IMG/VR virus record: IMGVR_UViG_3300005265_000549
Coordinates: 1 to 64,000 of that record
Length of the DNA: 64,000 nucleotides
From: a virus
Direction: 5' to 3' (one strand)
In this document: positions 1 to 15,322 of the stretch, in pieces
How positions within the stretch are numbered: position 1 is the first letter of the stretch
How the letters are laid out: every line of letters begins with the position of its first letter
The notes under the pieces: generated by a model
What the model was told of the DNA's origin: nothing
The model's input: the letters and a program-made list of their open reading frames with translations, nothing else
Database searches by the model: none
Translations under genes and position numbers: made by a program

Positions 1-1354
1 TTGATAATCAAGAAGCTAGAACTTTAAATGATATGAAAGCAAGAAAATCAACTATGGATGCTAATGTTGATTTATTTTTTAAAATTGGTGCATCAAGAGG
101 TAAAGATATAATTCCTACTTTTGTTGCTGCGTTTGTAGAAAACGTTGATTATGCTATGCGTATTACTCAATGGGTCAGAGATATTCGAGGTGGTGCGGGA
201 GAACGACAATTATTTAAAGATATTCTTTCTTATTTAGAACAAAATGAACCTAATTTAGCAATAAAATTAATTAATAAAATTCCAGAACTTGGTCGTTGGG
301 ATGATATGTTAATTAATTATTCTAATAAAAATGTTGAAGATTATGCTTTCGAAAAGGTTTGATGGCTGTGAAGTTGCGTAACTTTTTTGAAATGACTCCT
401 AAACAATATCGTAAAACTTTAGTGAATTTAACAAAAGTTGTTGAAACTCAAATGTGTAAAAAAGAATGGGATGAAATTGATTTTTCAGCAGTTCCTTCAT
501 TAGCACATACTCGTTATAAATCAGCTTTTCAACGTAATTCAGTATCATATGGAAAATGGGTCGAAGCTTTAGTTAAACATGAAGATCCAAAAGTAAAAAT
601 TAATGCTGGAGCTGTTTATCCATATGATATATTAAAACAAGTGATATTAAATATGTTTGGTGGTTGGCAATTTAAACAATTTAATATTTCAGAAACTGAA
701 AGAAATGTTATTATTGAACAATGGAATGTATTACCTAATTATGTGAATGATGCAAAAGTTCTTCCAATGGTAGATGTTTCAGGTTCTATGTTTGGTTTAG
801 CAAGAGATAAAAATGTATCTCCAATACTTGTTGCTATTTCACTTGGATTATATTTTGCAGAAAAAAATACTGGTGATTTTAAAGATGTATTTTTAACTTT
901 TTCAGGTGATCCTGAATTAGTAAAATTAAATGGTGATATTGTTCAAAAAATTGAACAAATGGGAACTAGCAAATGGGGAATGAATACAAATCTCCATAAA
1001 GCTTTTGATAAAGTGTTAGAAATGGCTGTTAGTAAAAATGTAAAATCTGAAGATATGCCAAAAACAATTATTATTTTTTCAGATATGCAATTTGATAATT
1101 GTGTTAGATTTGATGATAATGCTTTAGAAATGATCGAACGTAAATATAATGATGCTGGTTATGAAGTACCTAATATTGTATTTTGGAACATTAATTCTCA
1201 TGACAATGTTCCTGTTAAATTTAATCAATCAAAAACAGCATTAGTATCAGGTTTTTCACCAACAATTGCTAAAACTATTTTAACAAATTTAGAAGATCTA
1301 TCACCAATTAAAATGATGTTAAATACTATTTTAGATAAAAGATATGATTATTAA
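1..1354 (+). pseudogene. TROVE/vWA (Ro60-like, DUF2828-type) protein, split by a frameshift/deletion near 352-360; 5' end probably lies upstream of the window
   Basis: ORF 33-362 (RDIRGGAGER, GRWDD) and ORF 359-1354 (VPSLA, YPYDI, MIDAS-like DVSGSM, TFS, NTNL, FSDMQFD, VFWN, SGFS) are two halves of one family. The frame is open back to position 3 (DNQEARTLND). Confidence 0.75.
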
Positions 1355-1378
1355 TAAAATTATTTGATGTAATTTATA

Positions 1379-1639
1379 ATGATTTGTGATGATAATAAAT
1401 ATTCATATAAGAAGATATCTAAAATATTTTATGTTTTTTTATATGATTCAAAAATTATTGGTGATGTTTTTAAATCGAATGACTCGTGGGGTTGTTTTTT
1501 ACATGAACCCCACGAGTTAAATCCAATTTTAGGTTTTAAGACGAAAAGATATGCTTCAGACTTTTTACTAAAATTGAGTAGTTTAAAAAAGAATAAGGAA
1601 AGAAAATTTTTAAAATTTAGAAAAAATAAATTAAGGTGA
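1379..1639 (+). CDS. hypothetical protein
   Basis: 86 aa ORF in the co-oriented run; contains a GC-rich hairpin. Confidence 0.45.
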   Translation: MICDDNKYSYKKISKIFYVFLYDSKIIGDVFKSNDSWGCFLHEPHELNPILGFKTKRYASDFLLKLSSLKKNKERKFLKFRKNKLR

Positions 1640-1845
1640 ATATGAAGAGAATATTCGAAATATTAAAAGATGAAAAATGGATTCCTATTGAAATGGAATA
1701 TTTAAGAAAAGGTGATCAATTTAGAATTTTTGATCAATATGATGATGGTTTGCAAAAAGTTATTTTTGAAGATAAAGATGTTTTTACTTGTCTAGATGAT
1801 ACTTATAAAAATGAAAATGATTTATGGACAGTAAATATTAAATAA
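1636..1845 (+). CDS. hypothetical protein
   Basis: 69 aa ORF, AAGG before the start. Confidence 0.55.
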   Translation: MNMKRIFEILKDEKWIPIEMEYLRKGDQFRIFDQYDDGLQKVIFEDKDVFTCLDDTYKNENDLWTVNIK

Positions 1846-1851
1846 AAATAT

Positions 1852-1929
1852 CCGGGAGTAGCTCAGTCAGGTCAGAGTTCTCGCCTTGGAAGCGAGATGT
1901 CGTAGGTCCAAATCCTACCTTCCGGACCA
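1852..1929 (+). tRNA. tRNA-Pro(TGG)
   Basis: Acceptor CCGGGAG/CTTCCGG, anticodon arm CTCGC-CTTGGAA-GCGAG, encoded CCA; T-loop TCCAAAT. Confidence 0.92.
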
Positions 1930-1940
1930 AAAAAATTAAT

Positions 1941-2013
1941 GGGGAATGCTCATGGGTGACACCGGACGTTTTGCAAGTGACTGGGGAGGGTTCAATTCCC
2001 TCATTCTCCACCA
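1941..2013 (+). tRNA. atypical tRNA-Ala(TGC)
   Basis: Acceptor GGGGAAT/ATTCTCC with G3:U70, A73 and CCA; T arm GAGGG-TTCAATT-CCCTC; loop TTTGCAA on a poorly paired stem; weak D arm. Confidence 0.65.
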
Positions 2014-2029
2014 TTTTTAAAAAGAGGAG

Positions 2030-2581
2030 TTGTGTATGAGACATTTTTTAATTATGTTTTTTATTATGATTTTTTTATCATTTTCTGGTTGTTCTAGAGC
2101 TTATATGGTTAATGAAACTGGAGGATCAGATAGTTTAGTAGCTTGGGCTAATTTATCAAATAGTGGTGATTCAACAGAATTTGAATTTTTATCATTATTT
2201 TTAAATGAAAATATTGATAATTTAAATATAATGAAACTTGAAGATATGTCATTATGGGAAGAAGTTTATGATAATAATCCCAATACTAATCTTTGGGGAT
2301 ATAATTTTCAAAATGAAAATCCAGAATATTTTTTAGTTAAAACTGGAAATAATAATTTAAATGATTATAGATATTTTTTATATTTAAATAATGATTATAT
2401 TTCTTTTGGTGTTATTGATTTATTTGAATCATATGAAATTATTGAGATAGGAAAAATTAGTCATATAAGTTATGCAACACCAACAAATCCTGTTCCTGAA
2501 CCCAATAGTTTATTTTTATTAGGAATTGGTTTAATGTGTTTGGGAATAGTTGGAATAAAAAGAAAGAAAAAAGAAGATTAA
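2030..2581 (+). CDS. PEP-CTERM sorting-domain surface protein
   Basis: N-terminal hydrophobic signal; C-terminus VPEP + transmembrane segment + KRKKK. Confidence 0.85.
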   Translation: MCMRHFLIMFFIMIFLSFSGCSRAYMVNETGGSDSLVAWANLSNSGDSTEFEFLSLFLNENIDNLNIMKLEDMSLWEEVYDNNPNTNLWGYNFQNENPEYFLVKTGNNNLNDYRYFLYLNNDYISFGVIDLFESYEIIEIGKISHISYATPTNPVPEPNSLFLLGIGLMCLGIVGIKRKKKED

Positions 2582-2588
2582 AATATTT

Positions 2589-2671
2589 TGAGGAGAATCT
2601 GGTGATGGCGATTAATTTAGTCATCGGTTCGATTCCTATTTGGAAATTCAGGTTCGATTCCTGACTCCTCA
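2589..2671 (+). ncRNA. tRNA-like element without a recognisable anticodon arm
   Basis: TGAGGAG/CTCCTCA 7-bp stem next to T arm TCAGG-TTCGATT-CCTGA; no CCA; second GGTTCGATTCC at 2626-2636. Confidence 0.5.
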
Positions 2672-2679
2672 TTTTTTAG

Positions 2680-2794
2680 AAGGATATTTTCAGCAAAATA
2701 CTTTACTTTGATCGGTAGTCTTTATTGGTTCGAATCCAATCGTTTTTTTCGGAAAATGTAGCTTAATTGGTAAAGCATTTAAATTAATATCCTG
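2680..2794 (+). ncRNA. Y RNA (YrlA)-like RNA with a circularly permuted tRNA domain
   Basis: Terminal stem AGGATATT/AATATCCT enclosing, in order, a T arm (2724-2740), a 7-bp acceptor-like stem closed by TTCG (2741-2758), TA, and a D arm GCTT-AATTGGTA-AAGC (2761-2776). Confidence 0.75.
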
Positions 2795-2804
2795 TTAAAT
2801 TTTT

Positions 2805-2883
2805 ACCCTTGTATACCCTCTGGCTACGAACTAGTTGAAAGGTTAATGAATACATGCAGGTTTGAATCCTGTCAAGGGTTCCA
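2805..2883 (+). tRNA. non-canonical tRNA-Arg(ACG) lacking a normal D arm
   Basis: Acceptor ACCCTTG/CAAGGGT + TCCA; CTGG-CTACGAA-CTAG arm; T arm GCAGG-TTTGAAT-CCTGT. Confidence 0.65.
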
Positions 2884-2892
2884 TAAATAATT

Positions 2893-2946
2893 AAGGTTGT
2901 TTCCCACATATCAAATAAAAATTTTTTATTTTTAAATAACAACCTG
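2893..2946 (+). ncRNA. short stem-closed RNA with the same ends (AAGG...CCTG) as the Y-RNA-like element
   Basis: AGGTTGTT (2894-2901) pairs with AACAACCT (2938-2945). Confidence 0.45.
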
Positions 2947-2957
2947 ATTTAAATTTT

Positions 2958-3030
2958 GAGTCTGACAAGTGTTCTTGGGTTATGGCTGCAAACCATCTTC
3001 AAGAGGGTTAAATTCCCTCCAGACTCTCCA
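2958..3030 (+). tRNA. tRNA-Cys(GCA), atypical D arm and T loop
   Basis: GAGTCTG/CAGACTC, U73 and CCA; ATGG-CTGCAAA-CCAT; T-loop TTAAATT. Confidence 0.8.
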
Positions 3031-3037
3031 TATTTAA

Positions 3038-3121
3038 GCCCTCGTGGTGGAACGGTTTACACAGTGGACTCAAAATCCATACCCTTATGGGTTCCCGGTT
3101 CGAATCCGGGCGAGGGTACCA
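3038..3121 (+). tRNA. tRNA-Leu(CAA)
   Basis: Class II cloverleaf, GTGGA-CTCAAAA-TCCAT, long variable arm, GGTTCGAATCC, CCA. Confidence 0.93.
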
Positions 3122-3143
3122 TTTAAAAAGGAATAATAATAAT

Positions 3144-3512
3144 ATGAAGAAATTGTTTTATTTATGTATATTTTTATTGATAACAACTTCAACATTAGCT
3201 ATTGAATCACCAATAAAATTAACAGTCTTACAATCACCAACAAAAAATATTTTATTTGAAGTTAAAGAAGCAAAAAAACCAATAGTTAAATATAGTCATA
3301 TTATTCATAATAAAATCAAATGTATTAAATGTCATCATAAAATAAAAACTGGTGATACTAATATTAAAAGTTGTAATGAATGTCATAATACGACAAGTGA
3401 AATTAATTTAAAAAGTGCTTTACATAAAAATTGTAAAACTTGTCATAAAGAAATGAAAAAAGATAATAAAAAAACTGGTCCAATAACTTGTAGAGGATGT
3501 CATAAAAAATAG
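3144..3512 (+). CDS. tetraheme class III cytochrome c (cytochrome c3) with signal peptide
   Basis: Four CxxCH motifs (CIKCHH, CNECH, CKTCH, CRGCH) plus HxxH and LH distal-ligand candidates; MKK + hydrophobic + TLA signal. Start moved to ATG 3144 because the track start at 3087 lies inside tRNA-Leu. Confidence 0.9.
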   Translation: MKKLFYLCIFLLITTSTLAIESPIKLTVLQSPTKNILFEVKEAKKPIVKYSHIIHNKIKCIKCHHKIKTGDTNIKSCNECHNTTSEINLKSALHKNCKTCHKEMKKDNKKTGPITCRGCHKK

Positions 3513-3572
3513 AGCGGGGTGATGCAGTGGTTAGCAGGTTAGCCTCATAAGCTAACAGTTGTGGGTTCAAAT
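3513..3572 (+). pseudogene. truncated 5' duplicate of tRNA-Met(CAT)
   Basis: 59 of 60 nt identical to 3932-3991; ends in the T-loop. Confidence 0.85.
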
Positions 3573-3589
3573 TTTGAAACAAGGAAAAG

Positions 3590-3847
3590 ATGGAATATTC
3601 TAAAGAACAAAAAAAGGAAATTGTTAAATGTAATGTGGATCAAGCCAAAAATATTTTAGTAAAAGCACAATTAATGAATAAAGGAATGTATTCACATCCA
3701 ATTAACAAAATGATACATCAATTATCTGATCTTCTCTCAAAAAAATCTATGTATAACTATGATGATGAGGAAGATATATTTTGGAAAATTGTGAAATTAA
3801 AACACTCGTTGGCTGGATATATGTTTTATGTAGATAATGAAATTTGA
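3590..3847 (+). CDS. hypothetical protein between the tRNA-Met copies
   Basis: 85 aa, AAGGA RBS. Confidence 0.6.
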   Translation: MEYSKEQKKEIVKCNVDQAKNILVKAQLMNKGMYSHPINKMIHQLSDLLSKKSMYNYDDEEDIFWKIVKLKHSLAGYMFYVDNEI

Positions 3848-3931
3848 TTTTTTGGAGTTATTTAGTGGTGATTGGATTATGGCTAAACATATTAGTCATT
3901 AGAGATAATTACCAAAAGATCCTAATAATAC

Positions 3932-4007
3932 AGCGGGGTGATGCAGTGGTTAGCAGGTTAGCCTCATAAGCTAACAGTCGTGGGTTCAAATCCCACCCCC
4001 GCTACCA
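3932..4007 (+). tRNA. tRNA-Met(CAT) with an initiator-like acceptor stem
   Basis: AGCGGGG/CCCCGCT + ACCA; TTAGC-CTCATAA-GCTAA. Initiator, elongator or Ile2 identity not resolved. Confidence 0.88.
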
Positions 4008-4029
4008 AAATATTTAATTAAATAGTGTA

Positions 4030-4080
4030 AAAACCTTGACATTATCTTTTCTTTATGTTATTATGTGTTTATATAATTAA
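4030..4080 (+). promoter_or_regulatory. early sigma70-type promoter cassette, copy 1
   Basis: TTGACA(4036)-17 bp-TATTAT(4059) with extended TG; cassette occurs six times. Confidence 0.85.
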
Positions 4081-4108
4081 CTTAAAGATGGAGGAAATAA
4101 AAAGTTAA

Positions 4109-4507
4109 ATGAAAGTTTTTTTAGGTGGAACTTGTAATGAAAGTAATTGGCGAAATCGTATGATGATTTATTTAACCAATTATGGGATTGATTATTTTAA
4201 TCCAGTTGTTGATGATTGGGATGAAAAAGCACAAAAAAATGAATTAAAAGAACGTGAAAAATGTGATGTTTGTCTTTATACAATTACACCAAAAATGTTA
4301 GGTTTTTATTCAATTGCTGAAGTAGTTGATGATAGTAACAAAAAACCAGAAAAAACTATTTTAATTCTTTTAAAAGAAGATGAATTTTATAAATTTAGTA
4401 AAGAGAAATGGAAATCTCTAAAAGCTGTAGCAAATTTAGTGAAAAGAAATGGTGGAAAAGTTTTTTATAATCTACATAATGCTGCAGTAGAAATTTCTAA
4501 AATATAA
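4109..4507 (+). CDS. nucleoside 2-deoxyribosyltransferase-like protein
   Basis: VFLGGTCNESNWR, FNPVVDDW, SIAE motifs. Confidence 0.7.
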   Translation: MKVFLGGTCNESNWRNRMMIYLTNYGIDYFNPVVDDWDEKAQKNELKEREKCDVCLYTITPKMLGFYSIAEVVDDSNKKPEKTILILLKEDEFYKFSKEKWKSLKAVANLVKRNGGKVFYNLHNAAVEISKI

Positions 4508-4510
4508 TTT

Positions 4511-4584
4511 GGGTGCGTAATTCAATAGTAGAATAGTGGACTTTTAATCCATCAACGAAGGGGCAGTACCTTCCGCACTCACCA
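4511..4584 (+). tRNA. tRNA-Lys(TTT)
   Basis: GTGGA-CTTTTAA-TCCAT; unusual T-loop GGCAGTA; CCA. Confidence 0.88.
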
Positions 4585-4594
4585 AAAAATATTT

Positions 4595-4671
4595 ACCCTT
4601 GTAGCTGAAATGGAACAGCAAGAGGTTTCTACCCTCTGTTAATGCAGGTTCGAGTCCTGTCAAGGGTTCCA
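4595..4671 (+). tRNA. tRNA-Arg(TCT)
   Basis: AGAGG-TTTCTAC-CCTCT; GGTTCGAGTCC; CCA. Confidence 0.92.
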
Positions 4672-4795
4672 AAATAATGTATTGGATTAATGTAAAAGTA
4701 ACAACAGAAGATAAACTTTTTGATGAATTTACTTTTATTATTAGTAAAGTATGTGGTTATTCAGATTATAATTAAATATATTTTAAATGTTTCAT

Positions 4796-4872
4796 ACTCC
4801 GGTAGCTTAGTTGGTTAAAGCACTCAACTTATAATTGAGAGATTGATGGTTCGATCCCATCTCGGGGTACCA
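4796..4872 (+). tRNA. tRNA-Ile(TAT)
   Basis: CTCAA-CTTATAA-TTGAG; canonical D and T arms; ACCA. Confidence 0.9.
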
Positions 4873-4882
4873 AAAATATTAT

Positions 4883-4958
4883 TCCCACCGACCGAGCAAG
4901 CGAACGGGCCTGACTGTTAATCAGAGATTGCCAGGGGCGGTACCTGGGGTGGGAGCCA
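4883..4958 (+). tRNA. tRNA-Asn(GTT)
   Basis: TCCCACC/GGTGGGA + GCCA; CTGA-CTGTTAA-TCAG; T-loop GGCGGTA. Confidence 0.88.
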
Positions 4959-4968
4959 AAATTTTAAT

Positions 4969-5044
4969 GCTTCTGTAGTTAAACTGGCTATAACACTAGA
5001 CCGATAATCTAGAATTCCCTGTTCGAGTCAGGGTGGAAGCACCA
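4969..5044 (+). tRNA. tRNA-Ile(GAT) with C33
   Basis: CTAGA-CCGATAA-TCTAG; TTCGAGT T-loop; ACCA. Confidence 0.88.
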
Positions 5045-5060
5045 ATTTTTAGAGGATAAT

Positions 5061-5261
5061 ATGGAAAAAAAATATAAAGTTGAAGCAATTTTTAGTATTC
5101 CAATTACTGCATATTTTAATGATGATAGTGTTAATGATCTTAATGATCAAGCTAGAAAAGCTGCAGAAGAATCATTATCTGTTGAAGCGGGATTAATATC
5201 AAATTTAACACTGAATAAATTTGAACTTGATTTTATGAAGAAAATCAAAATTTCTAAATAA
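5061..5261 (+). CDS. hypothetical protein
   Basis: 66 aa, GAGGA RBS. Confidence 0.6.
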   Translation: MEKKYKVEAIFSIPITAYFNDDSVNDLNDQARKAAEESLSVEAGLISNLTLNKFELDFMKKIKISK

Positions 5262-5302
5262 AATATTTTTACATTATAATTATTTTATGTTAATATTGTT
5301 TT

Positions 5303-5629
5303 ATGATAATAAATAATTTTATACAATTAATTTGGTTACATTTCGTTGCTGATTTTTTTTTACAAACACCAAATATGTCTTTAAAAAAATCTAAAAATAT
5401 TTGGTTTTTATTATATCATATCATTATATATTCAATTCCTTTTTTAATTTTCCTCCCTTTTAAATTTGTTTTAGTCAATAGTTTATCACATTTTTTAGTT
5501 GATTTTATTACTTCAAAATCAACACATTATTTGTATGAAAAAAAGAAATATCATTGGTTTTTTGTTGTAATAGGTTTTGATCAGGCTTTACATTTATCAA
5601 TTTTATATCTACTATGGAGAATATTATGA
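5303..5629 (+). CDS. DUF3307-like membrane protein
   Basis: HFVADFFLQ, HFLVD and GFDQALH motifs; hydrophobic. Confidence 0.75.
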   Translation: MIINNFIQLIWLHFVADFFLQTPNMSLKKSKNIWFLLYHIIIYSIPFLIFLPFKFVLVNSLSHFLVDFITSKSTHYLYEKKKYHWFFVVIGFDQALHLSILYLLWRIL

Positions 5630-5910
5630 GTGTTGATAATTGGGGTATTTGTCCAAAATGTATGGCAATTCAAGAAAAAAAGAAAGAAGAATTACGTAAG
5701 AAAATGGACTTATCTTATGGTAAAATTTCTGCAGAGGAATATCATGAGTTATTCCTCGAAATTACAAAACCAATTAATATAAAGTCAACTTTACGAGAAA
5801 ATTATGATATTTGGATAGATGAGGAGGGAAAATTTGAAATTGTATATTTAGCCTCATGCAATTCATGTGGTTTTAAGTTTGATTTTACAGAATGTCAACA
5901 AATTTTTTAA
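5626..5910 (+). CDS. Cys-rich hypothetical protein
   Basis: CPKC...CNSCG; GGAGA RBS before MSVDNW. Confidence 0.6.
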   Translation: MSVDNWGICPKCMAIQEKKKEELRKKMDLSYGKISAEEYHELFLEITKPINIKSTLRENYDIWIDEEGKFEIVYLASCNSCGFKFDFTECQQIF

Positions 5911-5923
5911 GAAAGGAATTTTT

Positions 5924-6202
5924 ATGGTTATAAAATTACATACACTTAAAACTGATCCAGAAGTTTTTCAAGCTGTTATTAAAAAATTGAAAACTTATGA
6001 AATACGGAAAGATGATAGAGGATTTAATGTAGGTGATTTTCTTTTGTTACAAGAAACAAAATATACTGGTAAAGAAATGTTAAAAGGAAAACCACTTCAA
6101 TATACAGGAAGAGAGCTTGATGTAGAAGTTACGCATATTCTTCGTGGGCCTATTTATGGATTAGAAGATGGTTGGGTAATAATGAGTATAAAAGAATGTT
6201 AG
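5924..6202 (+). CDS. ASCH/DUF3850-like (PUA-fold) protein
   Basis: HTLKT, KTYEIRKDDRGFNVGDFLLLQE, YTGR. Confidence 0.8.
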   Translation: MVIKLHTLKTDPEVFQAVIKKLKTYEIRKDDRGFNVGDFLLLQETKYTGKEMLKGKPLQYTGRELDVEVTHILRGPIYGLEDGWVIMSIKEC

Positions 6203-14965: not shown

Positions 14966-15322
14966 GGGGATAATTTGGGTTCGACAGGAAAAGGAAAAAT
15001 AAAATAACATTTAGAGGATTCTTTTTGTTACTCTTAAAACCAAAAAGATTAAAAAAGAATTGACGAAAACTTTTCTTACGCTATGGCAGCTTAGCCATTG
15101 TTCATCTTAATTTTGTTTATTGGATTTAGAATGAGCATCATTTTAAATAAACTAAATTTTATTTATTGTTTTTGTAAATAAAATTGAATTTTTTAAAAAA
15201 CTCGTTAATATAATTTTTTGATTTTATTTATATTAATTAAAAAATAAAAAATCAAAAATAAATGTAAATTATTTTATTTAGATATTTTTTGGACGCGGGT
15301 TCGATTCCCGCTATCTCCATCA
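14966..15322 (+). ncRNA. ssrA: tmRNA
   Basis: 5' GGGGATA...TTCGAC; 3' GGACGCGGGTTCGATTCCCGCTATCTCCA with G3:U70; pk1 (AGAG/CTCT, TCTTTTTG/CAAAAAGA); tag frame 15062-15094 DENFSYAMAA*. Confidence 0.93.

What the first reader, a model, noticed from the sequence alone, without database searches (positions are those of the whole stretch)
2680..2794. Circularly permuted tRNA mimic: a phage Y RNA (YrlA-like) candidate next to a Ro60-like gene
Seen: an 8-bp terminal stem (AGGATATT 2681-88 / AATATCCT 2786-93) encloses a single-stranded TTCAGCAAAA linker and then tRNA parts in permuted order: T arm ATTGG-TTCGAAT-CCAAT (2724-40), a 7-bp acceptor-like stem CGTTTTT/GAAAATG closed by TTCG (2741-58), U8-A9, and a canonical D arm GCTT-AATTGGTA-AAGC (2761-76). 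There is no anticodon loop and no free CCA end. Known: bacterial YrlA Y RNAs have this T / closed-acceptor / D layout on a Ro60-binding stem. A TROVE/vWA-type gene lies about 1.3 kb upstream. Inference: DUF2828-type proteins are divergent Ro60s with their own class of Y RNAs, forming a phage RNP hidden in the tRNA array (RNA repair, decay tether or decoy). tRNA scanners would probably miss it.
Basis: partly seen in the sequence, partly recalled or inferred. Interest (0 to 1): 0.9.

Follow-up and report, generated by a model that had tools for sequence, protein, structure and literature searches.

The report
Phage tRNA-mimic Y-like RNA gene
This phage carries a gene for a small folded RNA that imitates a tRNA with its ends sealed. 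It belongs to a large RNA family, not found in any paper I could search, that lies beside the gene for a ring-shaped Ro60-like RNA-binding protein in many phages.

Summary
Window 2681-2793 (+) has a 7-8 bp terminal helix, a single-stranded UUCAGCAAAA, a T arm, a 7-bp acceptor-like stem closed by UUCG, U8-A9 and a canonical D arm. Rfam's YrlA model matches only this tRNA-like core (27.5 bits, below the 69-bit cut-off).

It is not tRNA debris. Eight distinct homologs from other phage contigs keep all 20 scored base pairs, 14 of them through compensatory changes.

The terminal helix plus CAGCAA motif plus CUGUU tail is a "handle" shared by many small RNAs. My covariance model found it in 87 of 96 phage loci encoding a DUF2828/DUF7788 protein. 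All 170 hits lie on the gene's strand, and most lie just upstream of the start codon.

An AlphaFold model of an intact homolog (55% identical to the window's protein) matches only Ro60/TROVE structures over its full length, although Pfam TROVE is not hit.

The handle also resembles the Class I RNAs reported only from Dictyostelium (Rfam RF01414, up to 34.9 bits, below cut-off).

The gene's apparent break in this window is a 58-nt deletion of this record. A 97%-identical phage contig and public assemblies have it intact.

RNA-protein binding, expression and function are untested. This scan has already found the same pairing many times on other DNA.

The parts
1..1354 (+). Gene for the DUF2828 + DUF7788 (vWA) Ro60-fold protein. 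The contig start removes the first 8 codons. In this record the gene is split into two frames by a 58-nt deletion at 348/349.
   Evidence: Pfam hits. Comparison with the intact 477-aa L008 homolog and with P0001. L019 (97% identical) is one open frame through the junction. Logan contigs of 3 runs from 2 studies carry the extra ~58 letters. Fold of the L008 homolog.
2680..2688 (+). 5' flank AAG plus the 5' strand of the handle helix (A2681-U2793; G2682-C2792 through U2688-A2786).
   Evidence: Sequence. Handle model R1 hit at 2678-2798, 25.7 bits. Covariation of the helix over 36 and 9 distinct sequences.
2689..2698 (+). Single-stranded UUCAGCAAAA motif, the conserved sequence of the handle.
   Evidence: C, G, C and A of CAGCA are invariant in 118 distinct hits. 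The motif aligns with the UUACAGCAA core of Rfam Dicty_Class_I_RNA in sister copies.
2704..2717 (+). Weak hairpin (3 bp, 8-nt loop) at the position of the anticodon arm / YrlA 'V' arm.
   Evidence: Read from the sequence. Relatives have a 4-5 bp stem and a 7-nt loop here, e.g. L013 AUGGC-CUUGUAA-GCCGU.
2724..2740 (+). T arm ATTGG-TTCGAAT-CCAAT.
   Evidence: Rfam YrlA alignment. 5 pairs, 3 with compensatory changes, 100% paired.
2741..2758 (+). 7-bp acceptor-like stem sealed by the loop UUCG. No CCA is encoded.
   Evidence: The 4 outer pairs all show compensatory changes across 9 copies. The inner 3 pairs were read by eye from A6.
2759..2777 (+). U8-A9, D arm GCTT-AATTGGTA-AAGC, and A26.
   Evidence: The nt15:nt48 (Levitt) pair is complementary in 8 of 9 copies, as A:U, U:A or G:C (read from A6).
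2778..2797 (+). A/U-rich spacer, 3' strand of the handle (AATATCCT 2786-93) and conserved tail. The conserved CUGUU spans 2792-96, overlapping the last two stem bases.
2891..2950 (+). Second, degenerate handle-like hairpin: AAGGTTGTT ... AACAACCTG, with UCCCACAUAUCAAA where CAGCAA should be.
   Evidence: R1 hit at 26.1 bits, E 0.004-0.01. The invariant CAGCAA is absent, so membership is doubtful.

Best explanation
Window 2681-2793 is a gene for a structured non-coding RNA of about 115 nt. It belongs to a widespread phage family that I call handle RNAs.

Every member has the same handle: a 7-8 bp terminal helix of free sequence that opens with a G-C pair, a single-stranded (U/A)CAGCAA(A) motif directly after the 5' strand, an A-rich 3' side, and a CUGUU tail. 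The interior is an interchangeable cargo. Here the cargo is a tRNA body with a sealed acceptor end, in the order T arm, closed acceptor, U8-A9, D arm. This is the layout of the bacterial Y RNA YrlA.

Inferred steps:
1. The RNA is transcribed with the tRNA array.
2. It is released by the enzymes that trim its tRNA-like neighbours, which lie 8 and 11 nt away.
3. It is bound through the handle by the phage's Ro60-fold DUF2828/vWA ring protein, as Y RNAs are bound by Ro60.
4. The tRNA-like cargo then tethers or decoys a tRNA-recognising factor (nuclease, modification or repair enzyme, RNase P), probably in the phage-host contest over tRNA or in RNA quality control.

Shown here: the family, its structure, its linkage to the gene, and the protein's predicted fold. 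Not shown: expression, binding and function.
For: Structure and homology:
- YrlA core match; sister copies score 36 and 30.6 bits.
- Alignment A6 of 9 copies: 20 pairs, 100% paired, 14 compensatory, 0 of 500 shuffles reach this; slid controls reach only 34-48% paired.
- Levitt-pair covariation read from A6.

Handle family:
- Model R1, built from 8 minimal copies, finds 47 and 126 hits.
- The helix is 99.6% paired, with 7 of 7 pairs compensatory.

Linkage to the gene:
- 87 of 96 DUF2828 loci have at least one hit.
- 170 of 170 hits lie on the gene's strand; 163 are upstream, 7 downstream and 0 inside the gene.
- 71 loci have a handle ending within -40..+60 of the start codon.
- In the own 89-kb genome, the two best hits (E about 0.004-0.005) are the two near the gene; the next, at 64242 (E 0.018), does not look like a handle.
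- The pairing also holds in a cultured E. coli phage.

Protein:
- AF2 model with pLDDT 86.6 and pTM 0.84.
- Foldseek top 13 hits are all Ro60/TROVE, full length.
- The PDB sequence profile ranks Ro60 first, E 0.017.
- The gene is intact in the population.

Precedent:
- Ro60-YrlA in bacteria and 22 phages (PMC4201824).
- Thermus phage Ro60 binds two phage Y-like RNAs and host PNPase (PMC12135203).
- A DUF2828-type mycobacteriophage protein has a YrlA-like RNA just downstream.
Against: - No RNA-seq run holds this sequence, so there is no evidence for a discrete transcript.
- No binding data exist.
- The single-sequence fold energy is unremarkable (z -1.26).
- The element fails the Rfam gathering scores of both YrlA and Class I RNA.
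- This copy lies 1.3 kb downstream of the gene, whereas 163 of 170 family members lie upstream.
- Its anticodon-position hairpin is weaker than in relatives, so it could be a decaying paralog.
- The 96 loci are related phages and include some duplicate contigs, so the counts overstate independence.
- The R1-based alignments (A3, A5) are fitted to the model, which inflates pairing percentages. A6 is a plain MAFFT alignment.
Confidence: 0.8

Rival explanations
1. The element is debris: the T arm of one decayed tRNA gene fused to the D arm of the next, with chance complementarity around them.
For: It lies in a tRNA array among several non-canonical tRNA-like genes. Dimeric tRNAs are a known false positive for YrlA models (PMC4201824). 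The fold z-score is ordinary.
Against: The sealed acceptor hairpin, T, D and terminal helices are all kept by compensatory changes in 8 distinct homologs. No CCA or spacer lies between the 'two tRNAs', although real tRNAs here encode CCA. The same handle occurs on dozens of copies with no tRNA parts.
Confidence: 0.02
2. The handle hairpins are processing or insulating signals of phage tRNA operons (RNase recognition sites or spacers) that work without the DUF2828 protein. The gene linkage only reflects shared residence in tRNA islands.
For: The elements are interleaved with tRNA genes and abut tRNA-like neighbours within about 10 nt. No binding has been shown.
Against: 71 of 96 loci place a handle right at the start of the DUF2828 gene, and all 170 hits are on its strand. 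A conserved single-stranded motif next to a helix of free sequence is typical of a protein-binding site. T4's tRNA cluster, which has no listed DUF2828 gene in the 8-kb stretch examined, gave no hit.
Confidence: 0.1
3. The handles are cis-acting operators through which the DUF2828 protein represses its own translation. Copies such as 2681-2793 are dispersed duplicates without a function of their own.
For: In L008 (and its duplicate loci L009, L010, L020) the last handle encloses the Shine-Dalgarno sequence and ATG of the gene. Most loci have a handle ending within 40 nt of the start codon.
Against: In most loci, including the 97%-identical L019, the handle ends before the ribosome-binding site. 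Arrays of 2-6 copies with conserved, covarying tRNA-like cargo are not needed for an operator. This copy is 1.3 kb downstream, behind other genes.
Confidence: 0.05
4. It is a circularly permuted tRNA gene that matures into a working, chargeable tRNA-like molecule after RNase P opens the acceptor loop and CCA is added, as seen for M. smegmatis YrlA.
For: A 7-bp acceptor stem is the main RNase P determinant, and M. smegmatis YrlA is cleaved and receives CCA (PMC4201824). Relatives have a 7-nt anticodon-like loop.
Against: No CCA is encoded. The window copy has only a 3-bp stem with an 8-nt loop at the anticodon position, and the loops of relatives are not conserved as one anticodon. There is no bulge-helix-bulge motif. 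The handle would remain attached at the 26/27 junction.
Confidence: 0.05

Closest known systems
YrlA, the bacterial and phage Y RNA bound by Ro60/Rsr (Rfam RF02553; Chen et al. 2014, PMC4201824)
   Same: A terminal helix carries the protein-binding module. The interior is a tRNA mimic in the order (V hairpin) - T arm - closed acceptor-like stem - D arm, with G18G19, T-loop and Levitt-pair features. It is encoded on the same strand within a few kb of a Ro60-fold gene.
   Different: It scores 27.5 bits against a 69-bit cut-off. It lacks the GNCGAAN0-1G motif and has UUCAGCAAA instead, with a CUGUU tail. The partner protein is of the DUF2828/DUF7788 clade, which Pfam TROVE does not detect. It belongs to multi-copy arrays whose other members carry different cargo or none.
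Class I RNAs of dictyostelid social amoebae (Rfam RF01414; Kjellin et al. 2021, PMC7919456)
   Same: AAG start; a 5' G paired to the C of a CUGU end; a short terminal helix that covaries freely; a single-stranded motif ending in ACAGCAA directly after the 5' strand (invariant T3, C6, C9, A10 and A11 all match); a variable interior; genes in clusters. Minimal phage copies of 50-66 nt score up to 34.9 bits on the Dictyostelium model.
   Different: All phage copies are below the 41.5-bit cut-off. This copy is about 115 nt with a tRNA-like insert. There is no DUSE promoter. Class I RNAs are reported as unique to Dictyostelia, with CIBP/Rnp1A as the known binder. Whether dictyostelids have a DUF2828 protein was not tested here.
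Ro60 of Thermus phage phiLo with Yrl1/Yrl2 (PMC12135203; PDB 9KOP, 9L5Y)
   Same: A phage-encoded Ro60-fold ring with phage-encoded partner RNAs just upstream of its gene. It is among the top structural matches of the DUF2828 model.
   Different: The phiLo RNAs carry the CGAA motif of canonical Y RNAs and no tRNA array context. Sequence identity to the model is about 16%.
DUF2828-type 'Ro-like RNA binding protein' of mycobacteriophages (e.g. MsGreen gp54)
   Same: Same Pfam architecture, DUF2828 + DUF7788. It is 32% identical to the homolog modelled here. A tRNA-mimic RNA lies just downstream on the same strand (YrlA model, full length, 39.3 bits).
   Different: That RNA starts CACAGGAAAAAC, which lies between the YrlA and CAGCAA motifs, and is not found by my handle model. 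It is a single copy, not an array.

Membership tests
YrlA (Rfam RF02553) | T arm, acceptor-like stem closed by a loop, then D arm, in that order, inside a terminal helix | tested here: met
   cmscan alignment to model positions 29-81. Covariation of all three helices.
YrlA (Rfam RF02553) | Score at or above the curated gathering threshold (69 bits) | tested here: not met
   27.5 bits. Sister copies score 36 and 30.6 bits.
YrlA (Rfam RF02553) | GNCGAAN0-1G motif in the 5' strand of the Ro60-binding module (PMC4201824) | tested here: not met
   The sequence at that place is UUCAGCAAAA. CAGCAA is conserved in 118 distinct family members.
YrlA (Rfam RF02553) | Encoded within about 4 kb of a Ro60 ortholog, on the same strand | tested here: met
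   The element lies 1.3 kb downstream of the DUF2828 gene on the + strand.
YrlA (Rfam RF02553) | Bound by the Ro60 protein in vivo | not testable with these tools
   Needs immunoprecipitation or EMSA.
Dictyostelid Class I RNA (Rfam RF01414) | AAG start, 5' G paired with the C of a CUGU end, short covarying terminal stem | tested here: met
   AAGGAUAUU ... AAUAUCCUGUU. Stem covariation. Features as described in PMC7919456.
Dictyostelid Class I RNA (Rfam RF01414) | 11-nt motif next to the 5' stem with invariant T3, C6, C9, A10, A11 | tested here: met
   AUUUUCAGCAA at 2686-2696, whose first three bases are the inner end of the stem, fits all five positions. This is my own reading against PMC7919456, and the register is my choice.
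Dictyostelid Class I RNA (Rfam RF01414) | Score at or above the gathering threshold (41.5 bits); length 42-65 nt | tested here: not met
   The window copy is not reported by cmscan. The best minimal phage copies score 34.9 and 31.1 bits. This copy is about 115 nt.
Dictyostelid Class I RNA (Rfam RF01414) | DUSE promoter about 60 nt upstream; dictyostelid genome | tested here: not met
   The host is a phage and the element abuts a tRNA-like gene 8 nt upstream.
Ro60 / TROVE proteins | HEAT-repeat ring followed by a vWA (MIDAS) domain | tested here: met
   AF2 model of the intact homolog L008 (pLDDT 86.6). Foldseek top 13 PDB hits are all Ro60/TROVE with 500+ aligned columns and TM up to 0.64. This is a prediction for a homolog 55% identical to the window's protein.
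Ro60 / TROVE proteins | Match to Pfam TROVE (PF05731) | tested here: not met
   Only DUF2828, DUF7788 and VWA_2 are reported at E up to 0.1.
Permuted tRNA genes (Cyanidioschyzon type) | 3' half before 5' half, joined through a bulge-helix-bulge motif, with a working anticodon loop and a mature free CCA end | tested here: not met
   The acceptor is closed by 4-10 nt loops without CCA in all 9 copies. The window copy has only a 3-bp stem and 8-nt loop at the anticodon position.
skipping-rope RNA motif | Match to the Rfam model | tested here: not met
   Not listed at E up to 10 on 2560-3060 or 1-6000.

The most novel reading that the evidence does not exclude
Phage handle RNAs and the Class I RNAs of Dictyostelium are one RNA class: the ligands of DUF2828-type Ro60 paralogs. 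This second Ro/Y-RNA lineage would be shared by phages, giant viruses and eukaryotes. It would give the orphan Class I RNAs a candidate protein partner and a Y-RNA-like mode of action, and it would make the interchangeable tRNA-part cargos a programmable way of tethering or decoying tRNA-directed enzymes.
Probability: 0.2. Interest if true: 0.9.

Novelty: new variant of a known kind. Interest (0 to 1): 0.72.

Why it matters
Ro60-Y RNA particles are known from animals, about 5% of bacteria and a few phages, and what their tRNA-like modules do is still open.

This finding points to a much larger, separate branch. The DUF2828-type protein has tblastn matches in 710 cultured phage records, including Felix O1-like coliphages, Listeria P100-like, staphylococcal, campylobacter and mycobacterial phages. 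At least 8000 metagenomic proteins match it. In the 96 metagenomic phage loci and the one coliphage I examined, its gene comes with arrays of small RNAs that share one handle and carry different pieces of tRNA.

That gives a genetically tractable system, for example a coliphage on E. coli K-12, for asking what tRNA mimicry by Y RNAs is for. The likely setting is the phage-host conflict over tRNA.

The handle's close resemblance to Dictyostelium Class I RNAs, whose function has been unknown since 2004, suggests a concrete protein partner to test there.

Tried and rejected
- Single-sequence folding is not informative (z -1.26).
- Rfam at gathering thresholds finds nothing at the element. Skipping-rope is not matched even at E 10.
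- The YrlA family search of the own genome by the genome search picked the tmRNA 3' end, not the element.
- My first 12-sequence alignment (A1) put the L016 copies out of register and was dropped.
- T4's stable RNAs rnaC/rnaD, which are also unexplained RNAs in a tRNA cluster, are not members; no R1 hit with filters off.
- The R1 hit at genome position 64242 does not look like a handle.
- Window 2891-2950 has the helix and flanks but not CAGCAA, so I do not count it as a sure member.
- No RNA holder is listed among public runs, so expression could not be examined.
- Literature: DUF2828 (5 papers, none relevant), UCP015417, DDB_G0281243, 'Ro-like', and YrlA since 2019 gave no description of this RNA family. 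The October 2026 preprint on tRNA mimics covers other families. Avesson 2011 is not held.
- I could not determine whether Dictyostelium has a DUF2828 protein, or whether the Class I pull-down protein DDB_G0281243 is one. The protein searches list only the best 120 hits, and none listed was dictyostelid. The Atlas gave only viral clusters.

Full report
**Setting.** The window is the first 64 kb of an 89.2-kb IMG/VR phage contig that CheckV rates about 48% complete. Public runs that hold this stretch come from marine sediment and hydrothermal vent metagenomes in two studies. Bases 1-5100 form a tRNA island on the + strand. ARAGORN finds six tRNAs and Rfam a seventh. A tmRNA lies at 14966-15322. 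Several tRNA-like genes that the scanners miss lie between them.

**The observation.**
- The terminal helix is 2681-88 / 2786-93.
- TTCAGCAAAA is 2689-98.
- The T arm is 2724-40.
- The 7-bp acceptor-like stem is 2741-47 / 2752-58, closed by TTCG.
- TA is 2759-60, and the D arm is 2761-76.

Rfam's YrlA model aligns to exactly the T / closed-acceptor / D part (2722-2776, model positions 29-81). The score is 27.5 bits, E 0.009 for 6 kb against all 4227 families, well below the curated 69 bits. ARAGORN at default settings and the Rfam tRNA model do not call the element. The fold energy of the single sequence is ordinary (z -1.26), so the case must rest on comparison with relatives.

**The neighbouring gene.** ORFs 3-362 and 359-1354 both match Pfam DUF2828, and the second also matches DUF7788, a vWA-type domain. 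Intact homologs are single proteins of 477-503 aa.

The apparent break here is an artefact or rare variant of this record. The 97%-identical phage contig L019 has 58 more bases at window 348/349 and reads through in one frame, including the conserved AAKWAP motif. Logan contigs of three runs from two studies also carry the extra letters. The contig start removes only the first 8 codons.

**Recurrence.** nhmmer with the element found homologs in L013, L004 and L019, three contigs fetched because they encode the same protein. These showed that the terminal helix, the CAGCAA motif and a CUGUU tail are shared with many shorter hairpins in the same places.

I built a covariance model (R1) from eight minimal copies of 50-66 nt. 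It found 47 hits in the first 18 sources and 126 in 79 further DUF2828 loci. The tally is as follows.
- 87 of 96 loci have at least one hit.
- All 170 hits in those loci lie on the strand of the gene.
- 163 lie upstream, 7 downstream and none inside the gene.
- 71 loci have a handle ending within -40..+60 of the start codon.
- Copy number per locus runs from one to six.

The empty opposite strand serves as an internal control for chance. The loci are related phages and include some duplicate contigs, so the counts are not independent events. Even so, protein identity among them goes down to 34%, and the pairing also holds in the cultured coliphage dune, a Felixounavirus.

In the window's own genome, the two best hits are 2678-2798 (25.7 bits) and 2891-2950 (26.1 bits). 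The second lacks CAGCAA and is doubtful.

**Covariation.** The handle helix is 99.6% paired over 36 distinct sequences. All seven pairs show changes on both sides, with 79 compensatory cells against 20 ± 3.6 in shuffles. That alignment is fitted to the model.

For the tRNA-like subclass I used a plain MAFFT alignment of nine copies, eight of them distinct, from different contigs (A6). I scored 20 pairs: 7 in the handle, 5 in the T arm, the 4 outer acceptor pairs and 4 in the D arm. All 180 cells are standard pairs, and 14 pairs have compensatory changes. No shuffle reaches any of the five measures (0 of 500 each), and sliding the partners drops pairing to 34-48%.

Read from the same alignment, nucleotide 15 of the D loop and the base before the T stem are complementary in 8 of 9 copies (A:U, U:A or G:C). 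This Levitt-pair argument is the one used for YrlA in PMC4201824.

This rules out fused tRNA remnants.

**Anatomy.** In the better-preserved relatives, the order is as follows:
1. handle 5' strand
2. UUCAGCAA
3. a hairpin with a 7-nt CUUGUAA-type loop
4. a 5-nt AGGUA-type variable loop
5. T arm
6. sealed acceptor
7. U8-A9
8. D arm
9. A26
10. an A-rich spacer
11. handle 3' strand
12. CUGUU

This amounts to a tRNA opened at the 26/27 junction and closed at the acceptor end. In the window copy, the hairpin at the anticodon position is only 3 bp with an 8-nt loop. No copy encodes CCA in the acceptor loop, whereas the real tRNAs here do encode CCA.

Other family members carry only an anticodon-stem-loop-like hairpin, only a T arm, or nothing recognisable.

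**The protein.** An AlphaFold2 model of the intact L008 homolog (55% identical to the window's protein) has mean pLDDT 86.6 and pTM 0.84. Foldseek against the PDB returns Ro60/TROVE structures as the top 13 hits, all aligned over the full length, with TM up to 0.64 and E 1e-9 to 8e-5. They include Xenopus, human and Deinococcus Ro60 and the Ro60 of Thermus phage phiLo. Isolated vWA domains follow only after these.

A sequence profile also ranks Ro60 first, at a marginal E of 0.017. Pfam TROVE is not matched.

That this family is Ro-like is already reflected in annotation. Mycobacteriophage homologs with the same Pfam architecture are labelled 'Ro-like RNA binding protein'. One of them, MsGreen gp54, has a full-length YrlA-like RNA (39.3 bits) just downstream, beginning CACAGGAAAAAC. 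This suggests continuity between YrlA and the handle RNAs.

**Resemblance to Class I RNAs.** Before I consulted the scan's notes, Rfam reported sub-threshold matches of minimal handle RNAs to Dicty_Class_I_RNA: 34.9, 31.1 and 21.9 bits against a cut-off of 41.5. The same model finds matches in 4 of 5 phage records at E down to 1e-6 per record.

The published description of Class I RNAs fits the phage handle feature by feature (PMC7919456). Those features are an AAG start, a 5' G paired to the C of a CUGU end, a 6-bp stem that covaries freely, and an 11-nt single-stranded motif CCUUACAGCAA with five invariant positions.

Those RNAs are reported as unique to Dictyostelia. One of their four pull-down partners, DDB_G0281243, has no known function (10.1101/2020.04.05.026054). 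I could not test whether dictyostelids encode a DUF2828 protein, so this remains a resemblance and not a shown relationship.

**Mechanism.** Shown: a conserved, covarying RNA family; its tight, strand-specific linkage to a gene whose product is predicted to have the Ro60 fold; and a YrlA-type tRNA mimic as cargo in this copy.

Inferred from the Ro60-Y RNA precedent (PMC4201824, PMC12135203): the handle is the protein-binding site, and the cargo tethers or decoys a tRNA-recognising factor. The RNA is probably released from the tRNA-operon transcript by the trimming of its neighbours, which lie 8 and 11 nt away.

In L019, the array of four minimal handles and the gene follow two or three promoter-like repeats (TTTACA, 17 nt, TATAAT; read). 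This suggests a dedicated early unit. I could not check this.

**Novelty and earlier notes.** This scan has found the same protein-RNA pairing many times on other DNA. One later check rated the observation at 90/100 and the bold reading at 6/100. My results agree with those notes and were obtained independently up.

In the papers I could search I found no description of the CAGCAA-handle RNA family. I rate it a new variant of a known kind, the Ro60/Y-RNA particle.

Noticed in passing
window 348-349: This record lacks 58 bases that are present in the 97%-identical contig L019 and in Logan contigs of three public runs. The deletion splits the DUF2828 gene into two frames with a TGATG overlap. 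It is probably an assembly error or a minor variant.
   Followed up: yes
L008:2702-2773 (same in L009, L010, L020): The last handle RNA of the array encloses the Shine-Dalgarno sequence and ATG of the DUF2828 gene, and its 3' strand lies in codons 8-11. This could allow the protein to repress its own translation. Most other loci end the handle before the ribosome-binding site.
   Followed up: partly
L019:5087-5215: Two or three tandem promoter-like repeats (TTTACA, 17 nt, TATAAT/TATACT) precede the array of four minimal handle RNAs and the DUF2828 gene, as if they formed their own early transcription unit.
   Followed up: no
window 2588-2672, 2805-2883, 2961-3033: Three tRNA-like genes have 7-bp acceptor stems and good T arms, and two of them have an encoded CCA, but their D or anticodon regions are aberrant. 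ARAGORN misses them at default settings. They flank the element within 8-11 nt.
   Followed up: partly
L013:5483-5542, L004:2500-2559, L019:5333-5382: Minimal handle RNAs carry a perfect anticodon-arm look-alike as their only cargo (for example TTCGA-CTGCTAA-TCGAA). The 'anticodon' differs between near-identical phages (GCT versus TCT).
   Followed up: no
L099:4070-4178 (Mycobacterium phage MsGreen): A YrlA-like RNA (39.3 bits, full model length) lies just after a 'Ro-like RNA binding protein' that is DUF2828 + DUF7788 by Pfam. Its 5' motif, CACAGGAAAAAC, is intermediate between the YrlA GNCGAA motif and the CAGCAA handle.
   Followed up: partly
L100:4712-4786 and 4879-4941 (Escherichia phage dune): Two handle RNAs lie between annotated tRNA genes, just downstream of the 'vWFA protein' gene, in a Felixounavirus that grows on E. 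coli K-12 MG1655. They are unannotated in the record. This is a convenient experimental system.
   Followed up: partly
window 14966-15322: The phage encodes a full-length tmRNA (Rfam 100.7 bits).
   Followed up: no
window 2030-2581 and 3087-3512: Genes for a PEP-CTERM protein and a class III (tetrahaem-type) cytochrome c lie inside the tRNA island. Other notes of this scan also flag them.
   Followed up: no
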